From: an uncultured Thermoleophilia bacterium
GTDB lineage: Bacteria > Actinomycetota > Thermoleophilia > UBA2241
NCBI GenBank assembly: GCA_963699725.1
Contig: CAVOVA010000020.1
Location: forward strand, 6,442-70,441
Length of the DNA stretch: 64,000 nucleotides
Direction of reading: 5' to 3'
Part shown: positions 15,975 through 26,219 of the stretch, piece after piece
Layout of the letters: every line of letters starts with the position of its first letter
Position numbering within the stretch: position 1 is the first letter of the stretch
The notes under the pieces: generated by a model
The model's database searches: none
Seen by the model: only the letters and a program-made list of their open reading frames with translations
What the model was told of the DNA's origin: nothing
Translations under genes and position numbers: made by a program

Positions 15975-17528
15975 TCAGGACTCGAGCAGGTCCCTGCCGG
16001 TCATCTCTCGCGGCTGTTCCACGCCCAGCAGCGCCAGCACCGTGGGCGCCAGGTCACAGAGCCGGCCGCCCTCGCGCACGCGCACGCCCGGCACCGTCGC
16101 GACGAAGGGCACGAGGTTCGTACTGTGCGCCGTGTTGGGGCTGCCGTCCGGCTCGAGCATGTGGTCGGAGTTGCCGTGGTCGGCGGTGATGAGGCAAGCG
16201 CCGCCCAGGTGGTCGACCGCCTCGACGACCCTGCCGAGGCAGGCGTCGACTGTCTCGACCGCCTTGACGGCGGCAGGAATGACACCTGTGTGGCCGACCA
16301 TGTCGGCGTTCGCGTAGTTCACGACCACGAAGTCGAACGCGTCGGCCTCCAGTTGCTCGACCAGCGCGTCAGTGACGCCCGGCGCGCTCATCTCGGGCTT
16401 GTGGTCGTAGGTGGGCACCTCACGCGGGCTGGGCACCAGGATGCGGGTCTCCCCCTCCGCCTCGCGTTCGACGCCGCCGTTGAAGAAGAAGGTGACGTGC
16501 GCGTACTTCTCGGTCTCGGCGATGTGGAGCTGTCGGAGGCCGTTCTCGGCGAGGACCTCGGACAACACGTGCGCGGGGTGCTCGGGCTGGAAGGCCGCGG
16601 GGAGTGTGAACTCCTTCTTGTACCGGGTCATGGTGACGAAGTCGACGGCGGGCGGGTGCGCGCCGCGGTCGAACTCGGCGAAGCCTCGTTCGGCAAAGGC
16701 GCGCGTGAGCTCACGGGCGCGGTCGGGGCGGAAGTTGAAGAAGAGGCAGACGTCGCCGTCGCGCACGCGCGACTCATGCTCGGGAGCGACGATCGTCGGG
16801 CGCACGAACTCGTCGTTCTCGCCGCGAACGTAGGCCGCTTCGACCGCCGCCTGGGCGTCTGCGGCGAAGAAGCCCTCGGCGTACGCCAGGGCGTCGTAGG
16901 CAAGCTTGACGCGATCCCAGCGCGTGTCGCGGTCCATCGCGTAGTAGCGGCCGCTGATCACGCCGTAGCGGCCGACGCCGAGGCGGTCCATCGCCGCCTG
17001 GATGGTGGCCAGAAAGCCCTTGGCGCTGCGCGGCGGCGTGTCGCGGCCGTCGAGGAAGGCGTGCACCACGACGTCGCGGACCTTCTCTCGACGGGCGAGC
17101 TCGAGACACGCCTCGAGATGGCCCATGTCGCTGTGGACGCCGCCGCCGGAGACGAGGCCCATCAGGTGAAGACGGCTGCCCCTGCCCGCCGCCTTGGCGC
17201 AAGCCTGGCGCAGGACGGGGTTCTCGAAGAAGCTGCCGTCCTCGATCGCGAGGCTGATCCGCGTGAGGTCCTGATACACGACGCGGCCGGCGCCGATGTT
17301 GAGGTGCCCGACCTCAGAATTGCCCATCTGTCCCGGCGGCAGTCCCACTGCAGGGCCCGAAGCGTCGAGGACGCCGTACGGATACTCAGCCGTGAGCCGG
17401 TCGAAGACCGGCGTCGCCGCGAGGCTCACGGCGTTGTCCGGGCCCGGCGGGCCGACCCCCCAGCCGTCCAGTACGATCAGTACGACTGGACGGTAGGTGC
17501 GTGCGCCGGCGGCGCCCGGATGGGTCAC
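15975..17528 (-). CDS. gpmI: 2,3-bisphosphoglycerate-independent phosphoglycerate mutase
   Basis: 517 aa. VLIVLDGWG, GNSEVGHLNIGAGR, ADHGN motifs. GTGA overlap with the pgk-tpiA stop. Confidence 0.95.
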   Translation of the reverse strand: MTHPGAAGARTYRPVVLIVLDGWGVGPPGPDNAVSLAATPVFDRLTAEYPYGVLDASGPAVGLPPGQMGNSEVGHLNIGAGRVVYQDLTRISLAIEDGSFFENPVLRQACAKAAGRGSRLHLMGLVSGGGVHSDMGHLEACLELARREKVRDVVVHAFLDGRDTPPRSAKGFLATIQAAMDRLGVGRYGVISGRYYAMDRDTRWDRVKLAYDALAYAEGFFAADAQAAVEAAYVRGENDEFVRPTIVAPEHESRVRDGDVCLFFNFRPDRARELTRAFAERGFAEFDRGAHPPAVDFVTMTRYKKEFTLPAAFQPEHPAHVLSEVLAENGLRQLHIAETEKYAHVTFFFNGGVEREAEGETRILVPSPREVPTYDHKPEMSAPGVTDALVEQLEADAFDFVVVNYANADMVGHTGVIPAAVKAVETVDACLGRVVEAVDHLGGACLITADHGNSDHMLEPDGSPNTAHSTNLVPFVATVPGVRVREGGRLCDLAPTVLALLGVEQPREMTGRDLLES

Positions 17529-19480
17529 GACGGCCCCGTGAAGCGCACGATGCGGGCGAACTCCCGCGGGTCGAGGCTGGCTCCGCCGACGAGCACGCCG
17601 TCGATGTCGGGTTGCGCCATCAGCGTGTCGATGTTGGCGCCCTTGACGCTGCCGCCGTAGAGGATGCGCACGCCGTCGGCGGCGTCGCCGAAGCGCTCAC
17701 GCACGCGGCTGCGCACGAAGGCGACGGTCTCCTGTGCCTGCTCCGGGGTCGCGGTCACCCCGGTGCCGATAGCCCAGATGGGCTCGTAGGCGATCGCGAC
17801 GGTGGCGAGCTCCGCCGCACTGATCTCGGCCAGGTCGGCATCGAGCTGGCCGCCGACCTTGCCCTCCGTCTGGCCGCCCTCCCGCTCCTCGAGCGTCTCG
17901 CCGCAGCAGAGGATCGGCCGCAGGCCGGCATCGAGCGCGGACCGCACCTTGCGCGCCAGGTCGGCGTCGTTCTCGGCGTAGTACTGGCGCCGCTCGGAGT
18001 GGCCGAGGATCACGTAGGGCACGCCGAGCTCGACGAGCATGTCCGGCGCCGTCTCGCCGGTGAAGGCGCCCTCGGCGGCGTAGTGCATCGTCTGGGCGCC
18101 GACCGCCACGTTGCTGCCGGCGGTGGCGGCGAGTGCCGTCTCGAGGCACACGTCCGGCGGGCAGAGCAGGACGTCCCGGTCGTCGACCCCGGCCACTTGC
18201 GGGACGAAGGCAGCGAAGAAGGTCTTCGTGTCCGCGCGGGTCTTGTACATCTTCCAGTTGCCCGCCATGAGCGGGCGACGACCCGGCGTCGCCGGAGCCA
18301 TACTGCGGTCCATGAGCGCCTCCACGCCGGGCAGCGCCCGGCCCTCCAGAAACTCCATCGATGCCCCCCCGCCAGTCGAGATGTGAGTGAGGCGGGCATC
18401 CAGACCGAACGTGCGCACCGCCGACACCGTGTCGCCGCCGCCGGCGACGGTGACCGCGACCCCGCCGGCGATGGCTTCACCGACGGCGCGTGTGCCGGCG
18501 CTGAACTCGTCGATCTCGAACAGGCCCATGGGGCCGTTCCAGTAGATCGTGCCGGCTCCGCGCAACTGGCGCACGAACTCGGCGGTCGTCTCGGGGCCGA
18601 TGTCGAGCGCCATCTCGTCGGCGGCGATGCCGTCGGCAGCGACGACCCGTGACGGCGCGCCGGCCGCGGCCTCACGTGCCGCGACGACGTCCGTCGGGAC
18701 GACCAGACGGCCGTGGGCGGCCGCCGCTTCGGCGAGGATCTCGCCGGCGACCGCGACCTCGCTGCCGGCGCCCTTGGACGCGCCGACCTCGTACCCCTTG
18801 GCGGCGAGAAAGGCATTGGCCATGGCGCCGCCGATCAGCACCGTGTCGGCGATCTTGAGCATGTGCCGGATGAGGCTGATCTTGTCGGAGACCTTGAGAC
18901 CACCGAGCACCACGACGAAGGGCCGCGCCGGATGGCGGAGGAGGCGGCCCAGGATCTCCAGCTCCTTGGTCATGAGCAGCCCGGCGATCGACGGCAAGTA
19001 GTGCGTCACGCCCTCAGTCGACGCGTGCGCGCGATGCGCGGTTCCGAAGGCGTCGTTTACGTATACGTCGCCGAGCGCGGCGAGCTGGCGGGCGAATCCG
19101 TCGTCGTCGCCCGTTTCCTCGGCGTGGAAGCGGAGGTTCTCGAGCAGGAGCACGTCGCCGGGTCGCAGGGCGGCGGCCGCCTGCGCGACGGCGGGGCCGA
19201 CGCAGTCGTCCGCGGTCGCCACTGGACGGCCCAGCAGCTCAGAGAGGCGCGCCGCCACCGGCGCCATGCGCAACCCGTCCACGACCGCGCCCTTGGGGCG
19301 GCCGAGATGGGACATGAGCACGACCGCGCACCCCTGGTCGAGGAGGTACGCGATCGTCGGCAGGGCGGCACGGATGCGCGTGTCGTCGACGACCCGGCCG
19401 CCCTCGAGCGGCACGTTGAAGTCGACGCGCACGAGGACGCGTTTGCCCGCGAGCGGATAGTCGGTGAGCGCACGCTTCAT
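17525..19480 (-). CDS. pgk-tpiA: Fused phosphoglycerate kinase / triosephosphate isomerase (single 651-aa ORF)
   Basis: N-terminal PGK (RVDFNVPL..., ...FLEGRALPGVEAL), linker DRSMAPATPGRRP, then TIM (LMAGNWKMYKT..., ILGHSERR, AYEPIWAIGTG). No stop codon between the two modules. Confidence 0.93.
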   Translation of the reverse strand: MKRALTDYPLAGKRVLVRVDFNVPLEGGRVVDDTRIRAALPTIAYLLDQGCAVVLMSHLGRPKGAVVDGLRMAPVAARLSELLGRPVATADDCVGPAVAQAAAALRPGDVLLLENLRFHAEETGDDDGFARQLAALGDVYVNDAFGTAHRAHASTEGVTHYLPSIAGLLMTKELEILGRLLRHPARPFVVVLGGLKVSDKISLIRHMLKIADTVLIGGAMANAFLAAKGYEVGASKGAGSEVAVAGEILAEAAAAHGRLVVPTDVVAAREAAAGAPSRVVAADGIAADEMALDIGPETTAEFVRQLRGAGTIYWNGPMGLFEIDEFSAGTRAVGEAIAGGVAVTVAGGGDTVSAVRTFGLDARLTHISTGGGASMEFLEGRALPGVEALMDRSMAPATPGRRPLMAGNWKMYKTRADTKTFFAAFVPQVAGVDDRDVLLCPPDVCLETALAATAGSNVAVGAQTMHYAAEGAFTGETAPDMLVELGVPYVILGHSERRQYYAENDADLARKVRSALDAGLRPILCCGETLEEREGGQTEGKVGGQLDADLAEISAAELATVAIAYEPIWAIGTGVTATPEQAQETVAFVRSRVRERFGDAADGVRILYGGSVKGANIDTLMAQPDIDGVLVGGASLDPREFARIVRFTGPS

Positions 19481-19511: not shown

Positions 19512-20639
<1,128 letters not shown>

Positions 20640-23600
20640 TCAGCGGGCCGGCGGGAGCGCCGGCTGTGCGATCGTCGGTATGCGTCCGAGGAAGATGTTG
20701 CCCGTGCGGCCGTCGATGGACACCCAATCGCCCACCTCGATCGTCTGGCCGGCCAGGCGAACCGTACCCAACGTCTCGAGGACTTCGAGATCCTCGCACT
20801 CGACGACCGCGGTCTTGCCCAGGCGCTTGGCGGTGACGGCGGCGTGCGACGTGGTGCCGCCGCGGGCCGTGAGGATGCCGCTGACACGTGTGATCATGCC
20901 GATGTCTTCCGGCACCGTGTCCGGGCGCAGGAGCACGATGTTCTCATCCGGGGCCTCAGCCAGCAGACGGTCGATCTGCTCGGCATCGACGGCGGCACGG
21001 CCCGAGTAGGCGCCGCCGGCGACGCCCATCCCCACGGCGACCGGCGGCCCGTAGTTGGGCGACGCCGTGTCGAAGTAGGCGGCGTCGCGCGTCTGCTCCT
21101 GCACGGCCGAACGTTTCTGCAGCACGTACAAGTCAGACGCGGCCGGCGACTCGAAGGTGAACTCGATCTCCTGGGGATCGAACTCACGCTCGCCGACGAG
21201 GTCGCGCGCGACCGTCAGGAGCTGCTGGTAGATGTCGGGGAAGTCCCGCTCCAGCGAGTGCTCCGTGCCGCGGTAGGTGGCACTGCCCAGCCGCTGCGCC
21301 TCCGAGATCGGCCACGGGAACACGAGACCGCCGACGAGGTCCTCACCCTGGCTGCGCACGGCGAAATCGCCGAAGAGGCGGACCTGACGGCTGTATGGTT
21401 CGAGCGGGTTGTTGGTGAAGGTGACGCCCGAGCCGGACTCCCGGCTGAGGTTGCCGAACACCATGCGCTGCACGACCACCGCCGTCCCCCACTCCTCGGC
21501 GACCCCGATGTACTGCCGGTAGAAGCGGGCCGGCGCCGAGTCCCAGGAGTCGAGCACCTTGCGCAGGCAGGCGATGACCTGGGCGAACGGCTCGTCGACG
21601 AACACGACGCCGTGGTCGCGGGCGCGCGACTTGTAGGCGAAGGCGATCTCCTTCATCTGCTCGGGCATGAAGTCGACCTTCTGCCCGACCCCGTAGCGTG
21701 ACTTGTACTCGCTCATGATGGCGTCGAAGAAGTCGCGGTCGATGCCGTAGGACATGGCCCACGACTGCAGAAAGCGGCGGTAGCTGTCCCACGCCGCCCA
21801 GGCCGTCTCCGGACGCCGTGCGAACGCCTCCGCGAGCTCGTCGTTGAGGCCGACGTTGACGAACGTGGTCATGAGGCCGGGCATCGAGATCGCCGCGCCG
21901 GAGCGGATCGAGAGCAGCAGCAGCCGACGCGGGTCACCGAGACGCAGCCCGATCCGGCGCTCGAGCGCGCTCACCGCCGCCTGCACGCGGTGGATCGTGT
22001 CGTCGTAGAGCGGTGGATACGACATGGCCGGCAGTGCGAGAAAGAGCTCGTTGCTCAGCACGAAGCCCTCCGGCACCTGGTGGCCGTACGCGGCCATCTG
22101 CTTCAGGCCGAGCCCCTTGAAGCCGAGCGTCATCTGGTCGTCGGTGCCGGGCTTGGCCCTGTGGAGCGGGGAGACCAGCCGTTCCGGGTCGTAGTTCATC
22201 ATCCGCGTCAGCCCGCGTTCGTCGAGGCGGCCGTTCAGCATCGAGATCTGGCGGAGCGCCGCGGACACGTAGCGGTCGAGCGACTGCAGCCCGAGGCCGG
22301 ACACGAGCACGTCGCGCAGCACCATCTCGGCGACGGCGTCCACGGGCAGGCCCCGCGCCTCGCACTGGCGCGGGTCGTTGACGAGCACGGAGTGCAGGAC
22401 CTGCTCGTGACTGAGGACCGAGGTCGACGAGAGCTCGGTCACGTTGTTGGCGAGGAACTGGAACACGTTCTGGTACTGCCGGAAGGTGAAGTTGCGGCTG
22501 GCGAACGTAGCCTCGAGCATCGCCAGGTTGGCGCCGAGCGCGCGCGAGTCGACACCGTCGACGGCGAGCGCGCGCTCGAAGCGCCGCAGCGTCGTCGCCA
22601 TGCGGCGCAGGGACGCGCGCGTCACGTAGAGCTCGATGCCCTCGGCGACGACGTCGTCGAGCAGACGGGCGACGAGACTCTCGACGCGGAAGGACAGCCC
22701 AAGGGCGTCGAACCGCGGCTCGCTGTAGTTGCCGTAGATCGAGGGGATGCCGGCGGCGATGTGCCGCTTCTGGTAGATGTTCTCGGTCGCCGGCGAAGCC
22801 GCCGGGCCGAGGATGACGGCCTTGAGTTGCTCCAGGATCGTCAGCGAGGCGTCGAGCAGCGCGTCGCGCGTGCGCGGCGCCTGCCGGGCCTGCCAGCGCG
22901 CCAGAGCGACCTCGAAGCGCTGCCGCAGCCTGCCGTCGAGCTTGAGGTCGCGGCCGACCGCCGCACCGACGTCGTCGGCGGCGAGCGAGTACTTCCGGGC
23001 GAGCAGCTGGTAGGTGCGGACGACGAGCGCCACCCGGCGCCGGGCCACGCCGGCCGGAGAACGTTCCTCCACACGGCCCCTGCCCTTCGCCGAAAGGCCA
23101 AGACGCTCGTCCAGCTGCCCGGGTGCAAGGGCCAGAAGCCCGTCCAGAGCGTCGCGGGCATCTCGGCACGACTCCTTCGCGAGCGCCGTGAGTACGTCGT
23201 GCGGCCCCTCGGCCCATTCCCGCTCGCCGCGCACTGCGGCAAGCGTGTTGGCCGACACGTAGGGCTCGAGGCCGCCGGGGTCGAGCGTCAGCCAGTAGTC
23301 CAGAACGGCGCGGCTGAACGCTACCATGCGGTTCGACGACTCCGCGTGAACCTGCTTGCGCAGGAAATGCATGAGCGTGTCGCGCCGCCCGCAGATCTCG
23401 TCGATCTGGGTCGAGACGGAGCGCAGTTCCCCCTCCGCCCCGACCTCGTTGAAATAGACCGGCAGCGTGCGCAGGAGTTGCTTGGCGACGAAGTAGATGG
23501 GCCGGATATCGGCGTTGAGAAGGCGCGTCACGTCGCGCTGGAACAGGTCCGTGTCGGCGATGAAGACGCCGCCGAGGCGCAGTTGGACGTTGAGCGCCGC

Positions 23601-24854
23601 AGCCAGCCGCTCGAAGAGGGCGGGGTTCGACTCGATGATGTGCATCCAGCAGCGGATCTTCGGCAGGTGGTACGGGTTGACGACGGTCTCCCAGTCGTCG
23701 GTGGCGCCGCGGATGTCGGGGTACTGGAACTTCCAGTACAGGATGTCCTCCATGAGGTGGTCGGCGGCCTTGACGTTGCCCGCCTCGCCAATCGCCACGC
23801 CGATGGCCTCGTAGCACTCGAAGCGCGTGAGCAGGAACTCGTTGTCGCGGTCGCGGAAGAAGGCGGTGAGGCGGGTGAGGATGCGCTCCGCGTCGGTGTG
23901 CCGGTCCGGGTGCATCATCTGTTTGACCACGCCGAGGAGGTCGGCCATCACCTCCTTCTGGCGATAGCCCAGGGTCTCGTCCTTGAGGAAGAAGAGACAG
24001 ACGGCGAACCTGTCCTCGAGGTTGTCGACGCGGAACAGCGAGTCGATGGCCGCGCCGAGGATGGCCGAGAACAGGCGGAACGCCGGCGTGAGCAGCTTCT
24101 CGTCCGGCGCCGCCTCCAGCGCCTGCAGCAGCGTCGTGAGACGTCGCTCGCTGAGAAAGGCGAACTGCCCGGCCACAGCGCCGGGATCGGTGAGATGCTC
24201 ACCCTGCCTGAGCGCCCAGGCAGGCACGTCGAGGGCGTCGCGCACCCGCTGGTAGCTCGCCTCGAGAAGGCTGCGGTACAGCGCCTGGTAGCCCGCGGCG
24301 AGCTCCGGTCGCGACGCCGCCCGCTCGATGACGTTGTGCACCAGCGTGTCCCGCTCGAGGAACTGGGCCTCGTGCTCCGGCAGCAGGCGCTGCAGCGCCG
24401 AGGCCAGCCCTGCGAGAGCCTCGTCGTAGGCGTCGGCGTGCGGTCCTGCCATCGTGTCGGCCGACCAGGTGAGCAGGGCGCGGAGGAGCAGGGAGAACTG
24501 CTCGGGCGTCAGGTCGGAATCGAGCAGGCCGACGACCAGCTCCGCGAGGAGACCGAACAACTCGAGCCGGTCCGGCGAGCGCTCGAAATACGACCAGTTG
24601 CGCAGCAAGGTCGTCTGGAAGCCGTCCACCAGCAGGTCGGCGTTGCGGAACGTGTGGAAGTACTCGCCCATCGTCTCCGCAAGCGCGGCGCGCACGCCGT
24701 GGAGACCGTCCACCGCTTCCAGCAGCGGCAGATAGCGGTCCGGGATGACCACCTCCTGCGCCGTGTTGGCGAGGTTGGCGCGCAGGGCGTCGGAGTCGAA
24801 GGGTACGGGCGAGGTCCTCACGCGTGCATGATACCGCGCCGCGCCGGTCGTCAT
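20640..24854 (-). CDS. 1404-aa protein: uncharacterised N-terminal ~900 aa + PPDK-like ATP-grasp nucleotide-binding domain + phosphohistidine swivel domain; no PEP/pyruvate TIM-barrel domain
   Basis: The C-terminal ~497 aa carry PPDK-type motifs: LLLSIRSGAAISMPGLMTTFVNVGLND, GTAVVVQRMVFGN...SGSGVTFTNNP, GEDLVGG, DPQEIEFTF...LYVLQKRS and GILTARGGTTSHAAVTAKRLGK. The ORF ends ~65 aa after the catalytic His. Confidence 0.85.
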   Translation of the reverse strand: MTTGAARYHARVRTSPVPFDSDALRANLANTAQEVVIPDRYLPLLEAVDGLHGVRAALAETMGEYFHTFRNADLLVDGFQTTLLRNWSYFERSPDRLELFGLLAELVVGLLDSDLTPEQFSLLLRALLTWSADTMAGPHADAYDEALAGLASALQRLLPEHEAQFLERDTLVHNVIERAASRPELAAGYQALYRSLLEASYQRVRDALDVPAWALRQGEHLTDPGAVAGQFAFLSERRLTTLLQALEAAPDEKLLTPAFRLFSAILGAAIDSLFRVDNLEDRFAVCLFFLKDETLGYRQKEVMADLLGVVKQMMHPDRHTDAERILTRLTAFFRDRDNEFLLTRFECYEAIGVAIGEAGNVKAADHLMEDILYWKFQYPDIRGATDDWETVVNPYHLPKIRCWMHIIESNPALFERLAAALNVQLRLGGVFIADTDLFQRDVTRLLNADIRPIYFVAKQLLRTLPVYFNEVGAEGELRSVSTQIDEICGRRDTLMHFLRKQVHAESSNRMVAFSRAVLDYWLTLDPGGLEPYVSANTLAAVRGEREWAEGPHDVLTALAKESCRDARDALDGLLALAPGQLDERLGLSAKGRGRVEERSPAGVARRRVALVVRTYQLLARKYSLAADDVGAAVGRDLKLDGRLRQRFEVALARWQARQAPRTRDALLDASLTILEQLKAVILGPAASPATENIYQKRHIAAGIPSIYGNYSEPRFDALGLSFRVESLVARLLDDVVAEGIELYVTRASLRRMATTLRRFERALAVDGVDSRALGANLAMLEATFASRNFTFRQYQNVFQFLANNVTELSSTSVLSHEQVLHSVLVNDPRQCEARGLPVDAVAEMVLRDVLVSGLGLQSLDRYVSAALRQISMLNGRLDERGLTRMMNYDPERLVSPLHRAKPGTDDQMTLGFKGLGLKQMAAYGHQVPEGFVLSNELFLALPAMSYPPLYDDTIHRVQAAVSALERRIGLRLGDPRRLLLLSIRSGAAISMPGLMTTFVNVGLNDELAEAFARRPETAWAAWDSYRRFLQSWAMSYGIDRDFFDAIMSEYKSRYGVGQKVDFMPEQMKEIAFAYKSRARDHGVVFVDEPFAQVIACLRKVLDSWDSAPARFYRQYIGVAEEWGTAVVVQRMVFGNLSRESGSGVTFTNNPLEPYSRQVRLFGDFAVRSQGEDLVGGLVFPWPISEAQRLGSATYRGTEHSLERDFPDIYQQLLTVARDLVGEREFDPQEIEFTFESPAASDLYVLQKRSAVQEQTRDAAYFDTASPNYGPPVAVGMGVAGGAYSGRAAVDAEQIDRLLAEAPDENIVLLRPDTVPEDIGMITRVSGILTARGGTTSHAAVTAKRLGKTAVVECEDLEVLETLGTVRLAGQTIEVGDWVSIDGRTGNIFLGRIPTIAQPALPPAR

Positions 24855-24983
24855 CCGTGTCCGCCAGACTGCTGCCTGCCGTTCGGACCTGCGCTAGGAT
24901 GCGGGCGACCGCACAGGCAAGCGGTATCCGGAGAGGCCCGTCCGACGGGGAGGTCCGGCGCCGCGACAGGAGGTACCGCAGGG

Positions 24984-26219
24984 ATGGGTGCACAACGGAC
25001 TCTCGGCATCAACGGTATCGGCCGCATCGGCAAGCTGACGCTCTGGCATCACCTCGGGCGGGACGACTTCGACCGCTTCATCGTCAACACAGGCCGCCCC
25101 GTGGGCACTTCGCTCGAGTCGGTGGTGCAGTATCTCTCCAAGGACTCGACGTACGGGCCGCTCCATCGCTTCCTCTTCGGCCGTTCCGGCGTCCGCGACA
25201 TGAGCGTCGTGGATGAAGAACGCGGCCTGATCAGCGCCTACGGCAAAGAGATCGTGATCCTGCGCGAGGCGCGCAACCCCAAGGACATCCCGTGGCGCGA
25301 GCACGGCGTCGCCCTGGTCGTGGACTGCACCGGCACCTTCCGCGACCCCCACGCCGACCCCGACGCGGCGCGCGGCGCGCTCCGCGGCCACCTCACGGCG
25401 GGCGCGGCCGTCGTCGTCCAGAGCTCGCCGTTCAAGAGCAGGCAGAAGGGCGTCCCTCTCCCTCCGGACGCCGCCATCCTCATCCACGGCATCAACGACT
25501 ACGAGTTCGATCCGGCGCAGCACACCCTGGTGTCGGCCGCCTCGTGCACGACGACCGCACTGGCGCACATGATCCGGCCGCTGCTCGACCGCGACCTCAC
25601 CAAGGACATGATCACCGCGGGCATGAGCACCATCCATGCGGTGACGAACTCGCAGCCGGTCCTCGACTCCGTCCCCAAAGCCGGCGCCACCGATCTGCGC
25701 AAGACGCGGGGCGCACTCGGCAACGTGGTGCTCACGTCCACCAATGCCGCGGCGGCCCTCGAGCAGGTGATGCCGGAGATCGGCACGATCGGCTTCATGG
25801 CCGACTCGGTGCGCGTACCCACCCAGAGCGTCAGCCTGATCATCCTCAACGTGACGTTCCAGAGCGAGACGCTGCCAGACGGGACCGTCTCGGTCGAACG
25901 CGAGGCCATCAACGCCATCTACCGCGCTTCCTCGGAGGGTGAGGCGAGGGGCTTGCTCAAGTACACGGACGAGCAGAACGTCTCCGGGGACATGTTGGGC
26001 GAGGACGCCGCGGTCGTCATCGAGGGCGCCGAAACGCACACGCGCACAGGCTTCGTGAACCTGCGCCTGCCGCCGTGCGCGCCCGGCGATACGGAGAGAA
26101 GGGAAACGGTGCGCGTGCCGCTCACGCACGTCAAGGTCTTCGGCTGGTACGACAACGAGATGGGCAGCTACACGTATCGGCTCGGCGAGCTCACGATCCG
26201 CGCCGCGCGAAGCATGTGA
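24984..26219 (+). CDS. Atypical GAPDH-family dehydrogenase (411 aa)
   Basis: ATG at 24984 preceded by AGGAGG. GINGIGRIGK, SAASCTTT (catalytic Cys), TIHAVTNSQ (His), DLRKTRG, VRVPT, WYDNEMGSY. Several insertions relative to the canonical Gap encoded 4.5 kb away. Confidence 0.85.
   Translation: MGAQRTLGINGIGRIGKLTLWHHLGRDDFDRFIVNTGRPVGTSLESVVQYLSKDSTYGPLHRFLFGRSGVRDMSVVDEERGLISAYGKEIVILREARNPKDIPWREHGVALVVDCTGTFRDPHADPDAARGALRGHLTAGAAVVVQSSPFKSRQKGVPLPPDAAILIHGINDYEFDPAQHTLVSAASCTTTALAHMIRPLLDRDLTKDMITAGMSTIHAVTNSQPVLDSVPKAGATDLRKTRGALGNVVLTSTNAAAALEQVMPEIGTIGFMADSVRVPTQSVSLIILNVTFQSETLPDGTVSVEREAINAIYRASSEGEARGLLKYTDEQNVSGDMLGEDAAVVIEGAETHTRTGFVNLRLPPCAPGDTERRETVRVPLTHVKVFGWYDNEMGSYTYRLGELTIRAARSM

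What the first reader, a model, noticed from the sequence alone, without database searches (positions are those of the whole stretch)
24984..26219. GAPDH paralogue keeps its catalytic residues but has several insertions
Compared by eye with the canonical Gap at 19512..20510, this protein keeps the Rossmann GxGxxG (GINGIGRIGK), the catalytic Cys (SAASCTTT against SNASCTTNC), the catalytic His (TIHAVTNSQ against TIHAYTNDQ), the phosphate-site Arg residues (DLRKTRG) and the WYDNE signature. It is about 80 aa longer. The extra length lies in insertions such as RDPHADPDAARGALRGHL, SSPFKSRQKGVPLPPD and THTRTGFVNLRLPPCAPGDTERRETVRVPL. The S-loop region also differs. It therefore looks like an active phosphorylating aldehyde dehydrogenase with altered substrate or oligomer contacts, not a decayed duplicate.
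Basis: partly seen in the sequence, partly recalled or inferred. Interest (0 to 1): 0.55.

Follow-up and report, generated by a model that had tools for sequence, protein, structure and literature searches.

The report
Long GAPDH paralogue partnered with dikinase
This gene encodes an intact but unusually long relative of the glycolytic enzyme GAPDH, from a deep uncharacterised branch that in many bacterial phyla is inherited together with a giant ATP-driven phosphotransferase, which points to an undescribed step beside the GAPDH reaction of central sugar metabolism.

Summary
It is 32% identical to the canonical Gap at 19512-20510 and keeps every catalytic and anion-site residue. It has eight insertion sites, not three.

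It is not a decayed copy: dN/dS is 0.07-0.25. It also falls in no characterised clade, scoring below all NCBIfam cut-offs. A long branch with 100% support separates it from GapA, Epd and the 480-aa type.

Six insertions are family-wide. The NAD-specifying Asp32 is never acidic in 61 members and is followed by an invariant Gly-Arg, so I predict NADP(H) use.

The main result concerns the neighbouring 1404-aa PPDK-like protein (20640-24854). It lies within 600 nt of GapX in 109 of 160 loci from about 15 phyla, in three orientations. The two genes share their presence/absence pattern: 5 of 201 Actinomycetota genomes and 37 of 151 Thermodesulfobacteriota genomes carry both. GapX nearly always accompanies a canonical Gap and often sits in gap-pgk-tpi clusters.

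Best reading: an active, phosphorylating G3P dehydrogenase dedicated to this dikinase. The dikinase may make or use 1,3-bisphosphoglycerate, but that is inferred. I found no literature on the family. Earlier reports of this scan describe the same pair on other genomes.

The parts
24984..26219 (+). GapX: 411-aa divergent class-I GAPDH-family gene (P0001)
24968..24973 (+). AGGAGG ribosome-binding site, 10 nt before the ATG
   Evidence: read directly
24855..24983 (.). 129-bp spacer between the divergently transcribed GapX and PPDK-like genes. A TAGGAT box and a roughly 70-nt leader are conserved in close Thermoleophilia relatives only.
   Evidence: no Rfam match and no unusual folding energy
25005..25034 (+). 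Rossmann GxGxxG motif (residues 8-17)
25089..25109 (+). Cofactor-specificity loop. Thr36 sits at the Asp32 position and is never Asp/Glu in 61 members. Gly37 is invariant and Arg38 is present in 59/61. A family-wide 4-aa insertion follows (39-42).
   Evidence: role of Asp32 from PMC3728087
25176..25211 (+). Family-wide 12-aa insertion (residues 65-76) in the NAD-domain hairpin, next to the segment that forms the Q interface in canonical GAPDH
   Evidence: interface ranges from PMC5119734
25359..25391 (+). Family-wide 8-aa insertion (126-133) followed by the conserved R134-G135-H136. It comes directly after the TG-x-F element of the adenosine pocket.
25443..25466 (+). Family-wide 8-aa insertion (154-161) after the S-A/S-P-F-K element (canonical S119-A120-P121)
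25533..25556 (+). Catalytic Cys188 (= Cys149) within the SAASCTTT motif. Ser187 and Thr189 are the Pi-site residues.
25635..25655 (+). Catalytic His218 (= His176) and Ps-site Thr221 (= Thr179)
25656..25712 (+). S-loop, 3 residues longer than canonical (V230-P231-K232). Ser229 and Ala233 stand in for Leu187 and Pro188. Lys240 sits at the Arg195 position.
25734..25754 (+). Pi-site loop. Thr253 (= Thr208) is kept. Asn254 sits where Gly209 stands (Gly in 45 and Asn in 16 of 61 members).
25806..25820 (+). Ps-site Arg277 (= Arg231), invariant
25863..25886 (+). 8-aa insertion (294-301), present in about 61% of the family
26031..26120 (+). E-T-H-T-R-T motif followed by a 24-aa insertion (356-379). Together they lengthen the beta-hairpin (strands 352-361 and 375-390) that belongs to the P-interface sheet in canonical GAPDH.
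   Evidence: strand assignment from PMC5119734
26145..26159 (+). WYDNE signature (Asn391 = Asn313)
20640..24854 (-). Partner gene: a 1404-aa PPDK-like dikinase. It has an N-terminal 900-aa all-helical domain with no recognisable fold, a PPDK-type ATP-grasp domain, and a phospho-His swivel domain (GGTTSH at residue 1332). It has no PEP/pyruvate barrel.
19512..20510 (-). Canonical type I Gap (332 aa; TIGR01534 448 bits, above the cut-off)
17525..19480 (-). pgk-tpi fusion gene (651 aa) completing the triose-phosphate cluster

Best explanation
GapX is an active, phosphorylating glyceraldehyde-3-phosphate dehydrogenase from a distinct, deep-branching subfamily of class I GAPDH.

Shown:
- The complete catalytic machinery and both phosphate-recognition sites are conserved.
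- The fold is GAPDH and the gene is under purifying selection.
- The clade is separate from GapA, Epd and the 480-aa type.
- GapX occurs in addition to a canonical Gap.
- It is linked by position and by presence/absence pattern to a 1400-aa PPDK-like dikinase, and it recurs inside gap-pgk-tpi clusters.

Inferred:
- It uses NADP(H) or both cofactors. All three NAD-specificity determinants (Asp32, Leu187, Pro188) are replaced, and an invariant Gly-Arg follows strand beta-2.
- The family-wide insertions remodel the adenosine pocket and the S-loop.
- The long hairpin and the other surface insertions provide contacts for a different oligomer or for the dikinase.

Most speculative step:
- The dikinase uses ATP through its phospho-histidine to make 1,3-bisphosphoglycerate from 3-phosphoglycerate: 3-PG + ATP + Pi <-> 1,3-BPG + AMP + PPi. 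In reverse it would harvest ATP from 1,3-BPG.
- GapX would then reduce or produce that acyl phosphate.
- The pair would form a PGK-independent route between 3-PG and G3P, in the way PPDK or PEP synthase stands beside pyruvate kinase.
For: - Domains and fold: Pfam Gp_dh_N and Gp_dh_C. AF2 pLDDT 93.8, with best PDB matches all GAPDHs at target-normalised TM-score (TMt) about 0.9.
- Conservation: S187, C188, H218, T221 and R277 and the D-N-E of WYDNE (D390, N391, E392) are invariant in 61 members; T189 is kept in 59.
- Selection: dN/dS 0.07-0.25.
- Separate clade: a branch of 0.86 with SH-aLRT 100 separates 41 canonical sequences, including E. coli GapA and Epd, from the family. GapX scores below every NCBIfam cut-off.
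- Cofactor: position 36 is never Asp/Glu, G37 is 61/61 and R38 is 59/61. The roles of Asp32, Arg77 and Ser188 come from PMC3728087.
- Partner adjacency: PPDKL lies within 600 nt in 109 of 160 loci. Where at least 4.5 kb is available on both sides, the count is 56 of 72. The orientation is co-directional, convergent or divergent.
- Shared profile: the same 5 of 201 Actinomycetota genomes hold both genes. In 151 Thermodesulfobacteriota genomes, 42 hold GapX, 40 hold the PPDKL N-domain and 37 hold both.
- Non-adjacent cases: PPDKL is found elsewhere in 8 of 10 genomes where the two genes are not adjacent.
- Addition to canonical Gap: present above cut-off in 5/5 and 34/40 GapX genomes.
- Glycolytic context: pgk lies directly downstream of GapX in 18 loci, and gap->PPDKL->GapX->pgk-tpi operons exist.
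- Dikinase features: the phospho-His motif is intact, the ATP-grasp is PPDK-type, and the N-domain has 23 invariant residues, most of them polar or charged.
Against: - No biochemical data exist for any member, and I found none in the literature.
- The dikinase's acceptor is unknown. Its N-domain matches no known fold or family, so 3-PG is a guess from context.
- All tested genomes also carry pgk, so a bypass is not required.
- Asn254 replaces the Pi-site Gly209 in this lineage, and Lys replaces Arg195. Either change could alter phosphate handling.
- NADP preference is inferred from sequence only.
- Three Cys-less relatives nest inside the clade, so a non-catalytic role is possible for some members.
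- I could not inspect model coordinates, so the placement of the insertions rests on alignment and on published residue ranges.
Confidence: 0.6

Rival explanations
1. GapX is simply a second, NADP(H)-dependent gluconeogenic GAPDH, a functional analogue of Bacillus GapB. It works with ordinary PGK. The PPDK-like protein does a different job in the same pathway, for example regulation or phosphorylation of another metabolite, and is co-regulated with GapX rather than coupled to it mechanistically.
For: Canonical Gap and pgk are present in nearly all GapX genomes. GapX->pgk->tpi operons without an adjacent dikinase exist, for example L127, L147, L154 and L176. The cofactor determinants are changed. 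Many hosts are syntrophs or amino-acid fermenters (record titles). From my own knowledge of these groups, such organisms need gluconeogenesis.
Against: The presence/absence match with the dikinase is far tighter than pathway co-regulation usually gives. Adjacency survives three different orientations and apparent transfers between phyla.
Confidence: 0.25
2. GapX and the dikinase act on a different phosphorylated or anionic carboxylate/aldehyde pair. The dikinase would make an acyl phosphate and GapX would reduce it, as in the ProB/ProA, ArgB/ArgC or Ask/Asd pairs. The substrate would not be G3P / 1,3-BPG.
For: The protein scores below the TIGR01534 cut-off. Arg195 is Lys, Gly209 is Asn here, and the canonical SCTTN motif is SCTTT. 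Insertions flank the active-site entrance. A canonical Gap already covers the G3P reaction.
Against: Thr179, Arg231, Ser148, Thr150 and Thr208 are all conserved. These recognise the C3 phosphate and Pi of the GAPDH reaction (PMC3728087). The only recurrent neighbours are gap, pgk and tpi. Other neighbours vary between loci.
Confidence: 0.1
3. GapX mainly serves as a non-catalytic or regulatory subunit for the dikinase, for example as a scaffold, a sensor of NAD(P)H or triose phosphate, or a phospho-acceptor.
For: Cys-less and His-less relatives (P0183, P0215, P0220) nest within the clade. The first ~350 residues of the dikinase N-domain resemble HEAT-like protein-binding repeats at noise-level Z.
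Against: The catalytic Cys, the catalytic His and both anion sites are invariant in 61 of 61 main-clade members under strong purifying selection. A scaffold would not need them.
Confidence: 0.04
4. GapX is a decaying duplicate of gap.
For: It is only 32% identical to the neighbouring Gap and has many indels.
Against: dN/dS is 0.07-0.25. The family has more than 580 loci in many phyla with conserved length. It is not a recent duplicate of the local gap.
Confidence: 0.01

Closest known systems
Class I phosphorylating GAPDH (GapA; TIGR01534; e.g. Geobacillus stearothermophilus 1GD1, E. coli GapA)
   Same: It has the same two Pfam domains and the same fold (TMt about 0.9). It keeps Cys149/His176, the Ps residues Thr179 and Arg231, the Pi residues Ser148, Thr150 and Thr208, and WYDNE.
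   Different: Identity is 26-32%. GapX is 79 aa longer through eight insertions. It scores 282 bits against a cut-off of 367. Asp32, Leu187 and Pro188 are replaced. Arg195 is Lys, and Gly209 is Asn in this lineage. A long, fully supported branch separates it from the canonical sequences. It always has a dikinase partner.
NADP-using GAPDHs: cyanobacterial/chloroplast Gap2/GapA (2D2I, 1NBO), the B. stearothermophilus D32G/L187A/P188S mutant (1DBV), and B. subtilis GapB (from memory)
   Same: These are second GAPDHs beside a glycolytic one. Residues 32, 187 and 188 are altered, and Arg77 is kept (R97 here). They are the top hits by sequence and fold, but only marginally ahead of NAD enzymes.
   Different: Those enzymes are about 335 aa, keep Asp32 or replace it without insertions, and fall inside the canonical clade. 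None is known to pair with a dikinase.
Erythrose-4-phosphate dehydrogenase (Epd; TIGR01532)
   Same: It is a GAPDH paralogue located next to pgk, as in E. coli.
   Different: GapX scores 116 bits against a cut-off of 530. Epd groups inside the canonical clade, far from GapX. Epd has no insertions.
Pyruvate, phosphate dikinase (PPDK, EC 2.7.9.1), for the partner protein
   Same: The ATP-grasp and phospho-His swivel domains are shared. TIGR01828 scores 335 bits over these parts, and the GGTTSH motif is present.
   Different: There is no PEP/pyruvate TIM barrel. Instead there is a 900-aa N-terminal helical domain without a known fold. The score is below the PPDK cut-off of 843.
Kinase plus acyl-phosphate reductase pairs (Pgk/Gap, Ask/Asd, ProB/ProA, ArgB/ArgC)
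   Same: The logic proposed here is the same: one enzyme makes an acyl phosphate and a Cys-dependent NAD(P)H dehydrogenase reduces it. This comparison is by analogy only.
   Different: The activating enzyme here would be a His-phosphorylated dikinase yielding AMP, not a simple kinase. This is unproven.

Membership tests
Class I phosphorylating GAPDH (TIGR01534, EC 1.2.1.12/13) | Gp_dh_N plus Gp_dh_C domain architecture and the GAPDH fold | tested here: met
   Pfam 57 and 82 bits, both above their cut-offs. AF2 model matches GAPDH structures at TMt about 0.9.
Class I phosphorylating GAPDH (TIGR01534, EC 1.2.1.12/13) | Catalytic Cys149 and His176 | tested here: met
   C188 and H218 are invariant in 61 members.
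Class I phosphorylating GAPDH (TIGR01534, EC 1.2.1.12/13) | Ps site (Thr179, Arg231, Arg195) | tested here: met
   T221 and R277 are invariant. Position 195 is Lys240 (Lys in 47 and Arg in 8 of 61), a conservative change.
Class I phosphorylating GAPDH (TIGR01534, EC 1.2.1.12/13) | Pi site (Ser148, Thr150, Thr208, Gly209) | tested here: inconclusive
   S187, T189 and T253 are kept. Position 209 is Asn in this protein, with Gly in 45 and Asn in 16 of 61 members. The effect on phosphorolysis is unknown.
Class I phosphorylating GAPDH (TIGR01534, EC 1.2.1.12/13) | WYDNE with Asn313 | tested here: met
   D390, N391 and E392 are invariant.
Class I phosphorylating GAPDH (TIGR01534, EC 1.2.1.12/13) | Score above the curated equivalog cut-off | tested here: not met
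   GapX scores 282 bits against a cut-off of 367. All GapX-type genes in 45 other genomes score 265-347 bits, also below it. GapX therefore belongs to the superfamily and class but not to the curated equivalog.
Class I phosphorylating GAPDH (TIGR01534, EC 1.2.1.12/13) | G3P + Pi + NAD(P)+ activity; homotetramer | not testable with these tools
   Needs enzyme assays and SEC or structural work.
NAD-specific glycolytic GAPDH | Asp32 binding the adenosine 2'-OH, with Leu187 and Pro188 in the S-loop | tested here: not met
   Position 36 is Thr here and is one of L/T/V/I/F/A/Q/C across the family, never Asp or Glu. Positions 187 and 188 are Ser229 and Ala233 (PMC3728087).
Erythrose-4-phosphate dehydrogenase (TIGR01532 / NF010058) | Score above cut-off and clustering with Epd | tested here: not met
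   Scores are 116 and 111 bits against cut-offs of 530 and 539. E. coli Epd lies in the canonical clade across the 100%-supported branch.
ArsJ-associated GAPDH (NF033735) | Score above cut-off | tested here: not met
   146 bits against a cut-off of 450. Whether an arsJ gene lies nearby was not checked; the neighbours examined were the PPDK-like gene and whiA.
480-aa GAPDH type (NF006139 / PRK08289) | Score above cut-off; N-terminal extension | tested here: not met
   120 bits against a cut-off of 431. The 478-aa representative P0244 groups with the canonical sequences.
GapX-PPDKL two-gene module (defined in this scan, uncharacterised) | Family-wide insertions, the N-x-G-R loop, and a PPDK-like partner gene adjacent or in the same genome | tested here: met
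   All six family-wide insertions are present. The partner lies 129 bp away on the opposite strand. The same pair is found in 109 of 160 loci.

The most novel reading that the evidence does not exclude
GapX and the PPDK-like protein together catalyse a PGK-independent conversion between 3-phosphoglycerate and glyceraldehyde-3-phosphate. The first step would be a new reaction of central carbon metabolism, a '3-phosphoglycerate, phosphate dikinase': 3-PG + ATP + Pi <-> 1,3-BPG + AMP + PPi. It would be coupled, perhaps by channelling through a complex built on the GapX insertions, to an NADP(H)-dependent GAPDH. Many anaerobes and some soil Actinomycetota would then have a driven gluconeogenic step, or a PPi-linked glycolytic step with higher ATP yield.
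Probability: 0.25. Interest if true: 0.9.

Novelty: new variant of a known kind. Interest (0 to 1): 0.64.

Why it matters
GAPDH is one of the best-studied enzymes. Here is a large, deep clade of it: at least 580 loci in one-genome-per-species contigs, and about 1900 members in one ESM Atlas cluster. No member has been characterised. The clade has its own conserved insertions and a changed cofactor pocket, and it is tied to a 1400-aa enzyme of unknown function.

The module sits in the triose-phosphate section of glycolysis/gluconeogenesis. Its hosts include syntrophs, amino-acid fermenters, Cloacimonadota, Bacteroidales and soil Thermoleophilia. If the pair performs a new phosphoryl-transfer step, metabolic models and energy budgets for these organisms are missing a reaction.

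Even on the conservative reading (a dedicated NADPH-GAPDH), annotation pipelines now call it either plain 'GAPDH' or a 'domain-containing protein'. Both names hide a distinct function. The hypothesis can be tested directly with two recombinant proteins.

Tried and rejected
Genomic context for the representative proteins (P-ids) could therefore not be read. In particular, the basal subclade without the long hairpin (P0130, P0137, P0143, P0145, P0153, P0157, P0159, P0160) has no context. A metagenome scan seeded with that subclade returned only main-clade members.
- Natural dikinase-GapX fusions were sought with lengths = longer. The single hit, P0272, is a frameshift-ridden read-through of two adjacent genes, not a fusion. 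P0193 is a 682-aa fragment of the same kind.
- The 21-sequence alignment A1 was too divergent for the locus scan. A 5-sequence alignment worked.
- The conserved 5' leader of GapX was tested as an RNA element. It has no Rfam match, its folding z-score is 0.45, and it is conserved only among close relatives. Rejected as evidence of a riboswitch.
- The dikinase N-domain (residues 1-900) was modelled at pLDDT 89.6. It gave no PDB sequence-profile hit, no Pfam hit and no Foldseek hit at E <= 0.001. VIA-align gave only generic helical-repeat or four-helix-bundle matches at Z <= 12, which is noise level for helical proteins.
- Five literature searches found no paper on this GAPDH clade or on the pairing.
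- Neighbours beyond the pair are not conserved: metallo-beta-lactamase, DUF6179, SerA-like, glycine reductase, sigma factor, TPP enzyme. An adjacent GapN-like ALDH, reported earlier in this scan for some genomes, was not seen in the Syntrophorhabdus locus I examined.
- Model coordinates are not exposed to scripts. The 3D position of the insertions relative to the active site and interfaces could only be inferred from alignment and published residue ranges.
Full report
**1. The observation**

window:24984-26219 (+) is an open frame of 411 codons. An AGGAGG box lies 10 nt upstream of the ATG. Close homologues start at the same Met. Pfam finds Gp_dh_N (57 bits) and Gp_dh_C (82 bits).

BLASTP against the canonical Gap of the same window (19512-20510, 332 aa) gives 32% identity, E = 5e-37 and 82 gap columns.

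A 75-sequence L-INS-i alignment shows that the extra 79 residues lie in eight insertions, not three:
- Family-wide, occupied in at least 92% of members: residues 39-42, 65-76, 126-133, 154-161, 206-208 and 230-232.
- Present in 61-68% of members: residues 294-301 and 356-379.

**2. It is a working gene of a distinct clade**

The family was searched three ways.
- The 5.8-billion-protein search returned more than 120 clusters of 409-411 aa at 76-94% identity, named Thermoleophilia wherever a source gave a name.
- The exhaustive representative search found 81 clusters at E <= 1e-30. Full-length members are 375-451 aa and 33-49% identical.
- A scan of one genome per species found at least 580 loci. 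The record titles name Thermoleophilia, Acidimicrobiia, many Desulfobacterota/Thermodesulfobacteriota (Syntrophorhabdus, Smithella), Acidobacteriota, Bacteroidales/Lentimicrobium, Cloacimonadota, Clostridia, Calditrichales, Nitrospirota, Chloroflexia, Gemmatimonadetes, Methylomirabilota, Sumerlaeota, Spirochaetales and Fermentibacter.

Several lines show that the gene is functional.
- In a 61-member alignment the equivalents of Ser148, Cys149, His176, Thr179 and Arg231 and the D-N-E of WYDNE are invariant. Thr150 and Thr208 are kept in 59 and 60 members.
- dN/dS between the window gene and nine relatives is 0.07-0.25.
- AF2 gives pLDDT 93.8 and pTM 0.91. Foldseek finds only GAPDHs of about 334 aa, at TMt about 0.9 and 26-30% identity, so no solved structure carries the insertions.

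Two lines show that the clade is separate from characterised GAPDHs.
- All nine NCBIfam GAPDH/Epd models score below their cut-offs. Examples are TIGR01534 at 282 against 367, Epd at 116 against 530, ArsJ-associated at 146 against 450, and the 480-aa type at 120 against 431.
- In a maximum-likelihood tree (75 rows, quick search), a branch of 0.86 substitutions per site with SH-aLRT 100 separates two groups. One holds 41 canonical sequences: E. coli GapA and Epd, the window's Gap and a 478-aa type. The other holds 31 GapX sequences plus three Cys-less relatives.

In a sample of 201 Actinomycetota genomes the hits are bimodal. Five genomes have a GapX-type hit at E <= 1e-141. Every other hit is a canonical Gap at E >= 1e-36.

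**3. What is changed**

[quoted passage not shown] In this protein it is Thr36. Across the 61 members it is L, T, V, I, F, A, Q or C, and never Asp or Glu.

That position is followed by invariant Gly37 and by Arg38 (59/61), and then by the 4-aa insertion. Arg97 aligns with Arg77, the residue that contacts the NADPH 2'-phosphate. S-loop positions 187 and 188 are Ser229 and Ala233 instead of Leu and Pro. The loop is 3 residues longer. From this I infer NADP(H) or dual cofactor use.

The 126-133 insertion and the conserved R134-G135 follow the TG-x-F element of the adenosine pocket. H136 corresponds to the canonical His108, so it is not family-specific.

PMC5119734 gives the interface ranges of canonical GAPDH:
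- The P interface is the catalytic-domain sheet, including the 298-302 / 305-314 hairpin.
- The R interface includes the S-loop.
- The Q interface includes residues 43-53 and 274-291.

By alignment, the 24-aa insertion lengthens the P-sheet hairpin (model strands 352-361 and 375-390). The S-loop insertion lies at the R interface. The 12-aa insertion lies next to the Q-interface segment.

Two differences concern the phosphate sites. Arg195 is Lys240 (Lys in 47 and Arg in 8 of 61). Gly209 is Asn254 in this lineage (Gly 45, Asn 16).

**4. The partner**

The 1404-aa gene at 20640-24854 (-) is transcribed divergently from a 129-bp spacer. It has a PPDK-type ATP-grasp domain and a PEP-utilizers swivel domain with the GGTTSH phospho-His motif, both at its C-terminus. 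It has no PEP/pyruvate barrel.

*Adjacency.* tblastn over 80 genome loci and 80 metagenome loci finds this protein within 600 nt of GapX in 60 and 49 loci respectively. Among loci with at least 4.5 kb on both sides, it is adjacent in 56 of 72. The orientation varies:
- Co-directional, dikinase then GapX, in most phyla.
- Convergent in many delta-proteobacterial loci.
- Divergent in the window's close relatives, where the pair lies between whiA and gap-pgk/tpi.

Adjacency that survives rearrangement argues for a functional link.

*Presence/absence.*
- The dikinase N-domain is found in exactly the same 5 of 201 Actinomycetota genomes that hold GapX. These tallies include eight unpublished genomes (G001, G018, G048, G082, G088, G120, G148, G174), all of which lack both genes. 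Without them the count is 5 of 193.
- In 151 Thermodesulfobacteriota genomes, 42 hold GapX, 40 hold the N-domain and 37 hold both. The discordant cases are mostly contig-end fragments or weak hits.
- Of ten genomes where GapX lacks an adjacent dikinase, eight carry the dikinase elsewhere. In one of these (G203), the dikinase gene directly follows the canonical gap while GapX precedes pgk.

Divergence of the two proteins from the window's copies is correlated: r = 0.98 over 99 pairs, and 0.39 among the distant pairs only. These points are not independent. Reported fusions turned out to be frameshift artefacts.

**5. Pathway context**

GapX is an addition to canonical Gap, not a replacement for it. 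A canonical Gap above the TIGR01534 cut-off is present in 5 of 5 and in 34 of 40 further GapX genomes. Three of the remaining six have a near-cut-off or frameshifted copy.

The only recurrent neighbours other than the dikinase are gap, pgk and tpi.
- pgk lies directly downstream of GapX in 18 loci.
- A canonical gap lies elsewhere in the locus in 19 of the 160 loci. In some it sits just upstream of the dikinase or of GapX.
- gap->dikinase->GapX->pgk-tpi operons exist, for example L097 and L167.

Other neighbours differ from locus to locus. Together with the intact Ps and Pi sites, this makes G3P / 1,3-BPG the most likely substrate pair.

**6. The dikinase N-domain**

An alignment of 61 N-domains has 23 invariant residues, most of them polar or charged: H396, D434, D436, R478, D485, R499, K500, H503, E505, K621, Y622, E691, K696, R697, H698, S705, Y710 and E712, plus P379, L446, P465, G475 and G708. 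This suggests a catalytic or substrate-binding site rather than a mere scaffold.

AF2 predicts an all-helical domain (pLDDT 89.6). It contains one beta-hairpin whose low-confidence tip (697-702) carries R697-H698, just after K696.

No homologue could be identified:
- No PDB sequence-profile hit.
- No Pfam hit.
- No Foldseek hit at E <= 0.001.
- Only generic helical-repeat matches by VIA-align, Z <= 12.

The acceptor substrate remains unknown.

**7. Mechanism proposed**

*Shown:* an intact GAPDH-type active site, and an obligate genomic partnership with a His-phosphorylated dikinase within triose-phosphate gene clusters.

*Inferred:* NADP(H) use, and insertions acting as cofactor-pocket and interface elements.

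*Speculative (about 25%):* the dikinase interconverts 3-PG and 1,3-BPG at the cost or gain of ATP <-> AMP + PPi. From textbook free energies (my own knowledge, not a tool result) this reaction would be near equilibrium, about +4 kJ/mol. GapX would handle the acyl phosphate. The pair would parallel the way PPDK or PEP synthase stands beside pyruvate kinase.

Rival readings, in order of likelihood:
- A plain GapB-like gluconeogenic GAPDH whose partner does something else.
- Another acyl-phosphate/aldehyde substrate pair.
- A regulatory subunit, hinted at by Cys-less relatives nested in the clade.
- A decayed duplicate, which the data refute.

**8. Novelty**

I found no paper on this clade or on the pairing. 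Automatic names are 'Related to glyceraldehyde-3-phosphate dehydrogenase' or 'NAD-binding domain-containing protein'.

Earlier follow-up reports of this scan describe the same GapX-dikinase pair in at least eight other genomes and on this window's dikinase. My counts were made independently and agree with them. I class GapX as a new variant of a known kind. The two-gene system could be more than that if the dikinase reaction proves new.

Noticed in passing
window:17525-19480 (-): pgk and tpi are fused into one 651-aa ORF directly downstream of the canonical gap. Relatives' loci show both fused and separate forms (hits spanning residues 3-647, against separate hits to 3-389 and 401-647).
   Followed up: partly
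window:22761-22778 (-), residues 693-698 of the PPDK-like protein: The dikinase N-domain has an invariant K696-R697-H698 next to S705, G708, Y710 and E712. It sits at the low-confidence tip of the domain's only beta-hairpin. This may be the acceptor-site loop or a second phospho-acceptor.
   Followed up: partly
P0183, P0215, P0220 (representative proteins, no locus): Three 407-429-aa relatives nest inside the GapX clade. They have lost the catalytic Cys, WYDNE and, in part, the His. They are possible pseudo-enzymes. Their genomic context could not be read.
   Followed up: partly
P0138 (2089 aa) and P0182 (1455 aa): Two giant multi-domain proteins turned up in the search. One has four GAPDH units plus a PGK domain. 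The other has two GAPDH units plus HEAT repeats. Their origin is unknown, and they belong to the canonical type rather than to GapX.
   Followed up: no
L031 (Ca. Fermentibacter daniensis MAG contig) and L029 (MAG labelled Coriobacteriaceae): The nearest relatives of the window's GapX outside records labelled Thermoleophilia, Gaiellales or Actinomycetes are these two (69% and 75% identity). Their dikinases are also the closest (59% and 64%). The family tree does not follow organismal phylogeny; for example, Calditrichales groups with Anaerovoracaceae. This suggests transfer of the pair as a unit, or mis-binned contigs.
   Followed up: partly
window:24855-24983 and L020, L021, L023, L024: A TAGGAT box and a roughly 70-nt leader before the GapX start are almost identical in four of the close relatives, even though L021 carries a 56-nt insertion in between. 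There is no Rfam match and no unusual folding energy.
   Followed up: yes
G203 (genome of L095): C54:29114-32985 and C52:43800-44993: In this Thermodesulfobacteriaceae genome the dikinase gene directly follows the canonical gap, while GapX sits on another contig in front of pgk. The dikinase therefore associates with GAPDH genes in general, not only with GapX.
   Followed up: partly
L057:11465-12625 (+): In a Calditrichales genome the gene after GapX is a SerA-like D-3-phosphoglycerate dehydrogenase (2-Hacid_dh plus ACT). It is another enzyme that uses 3-PG.
   Followed up: no
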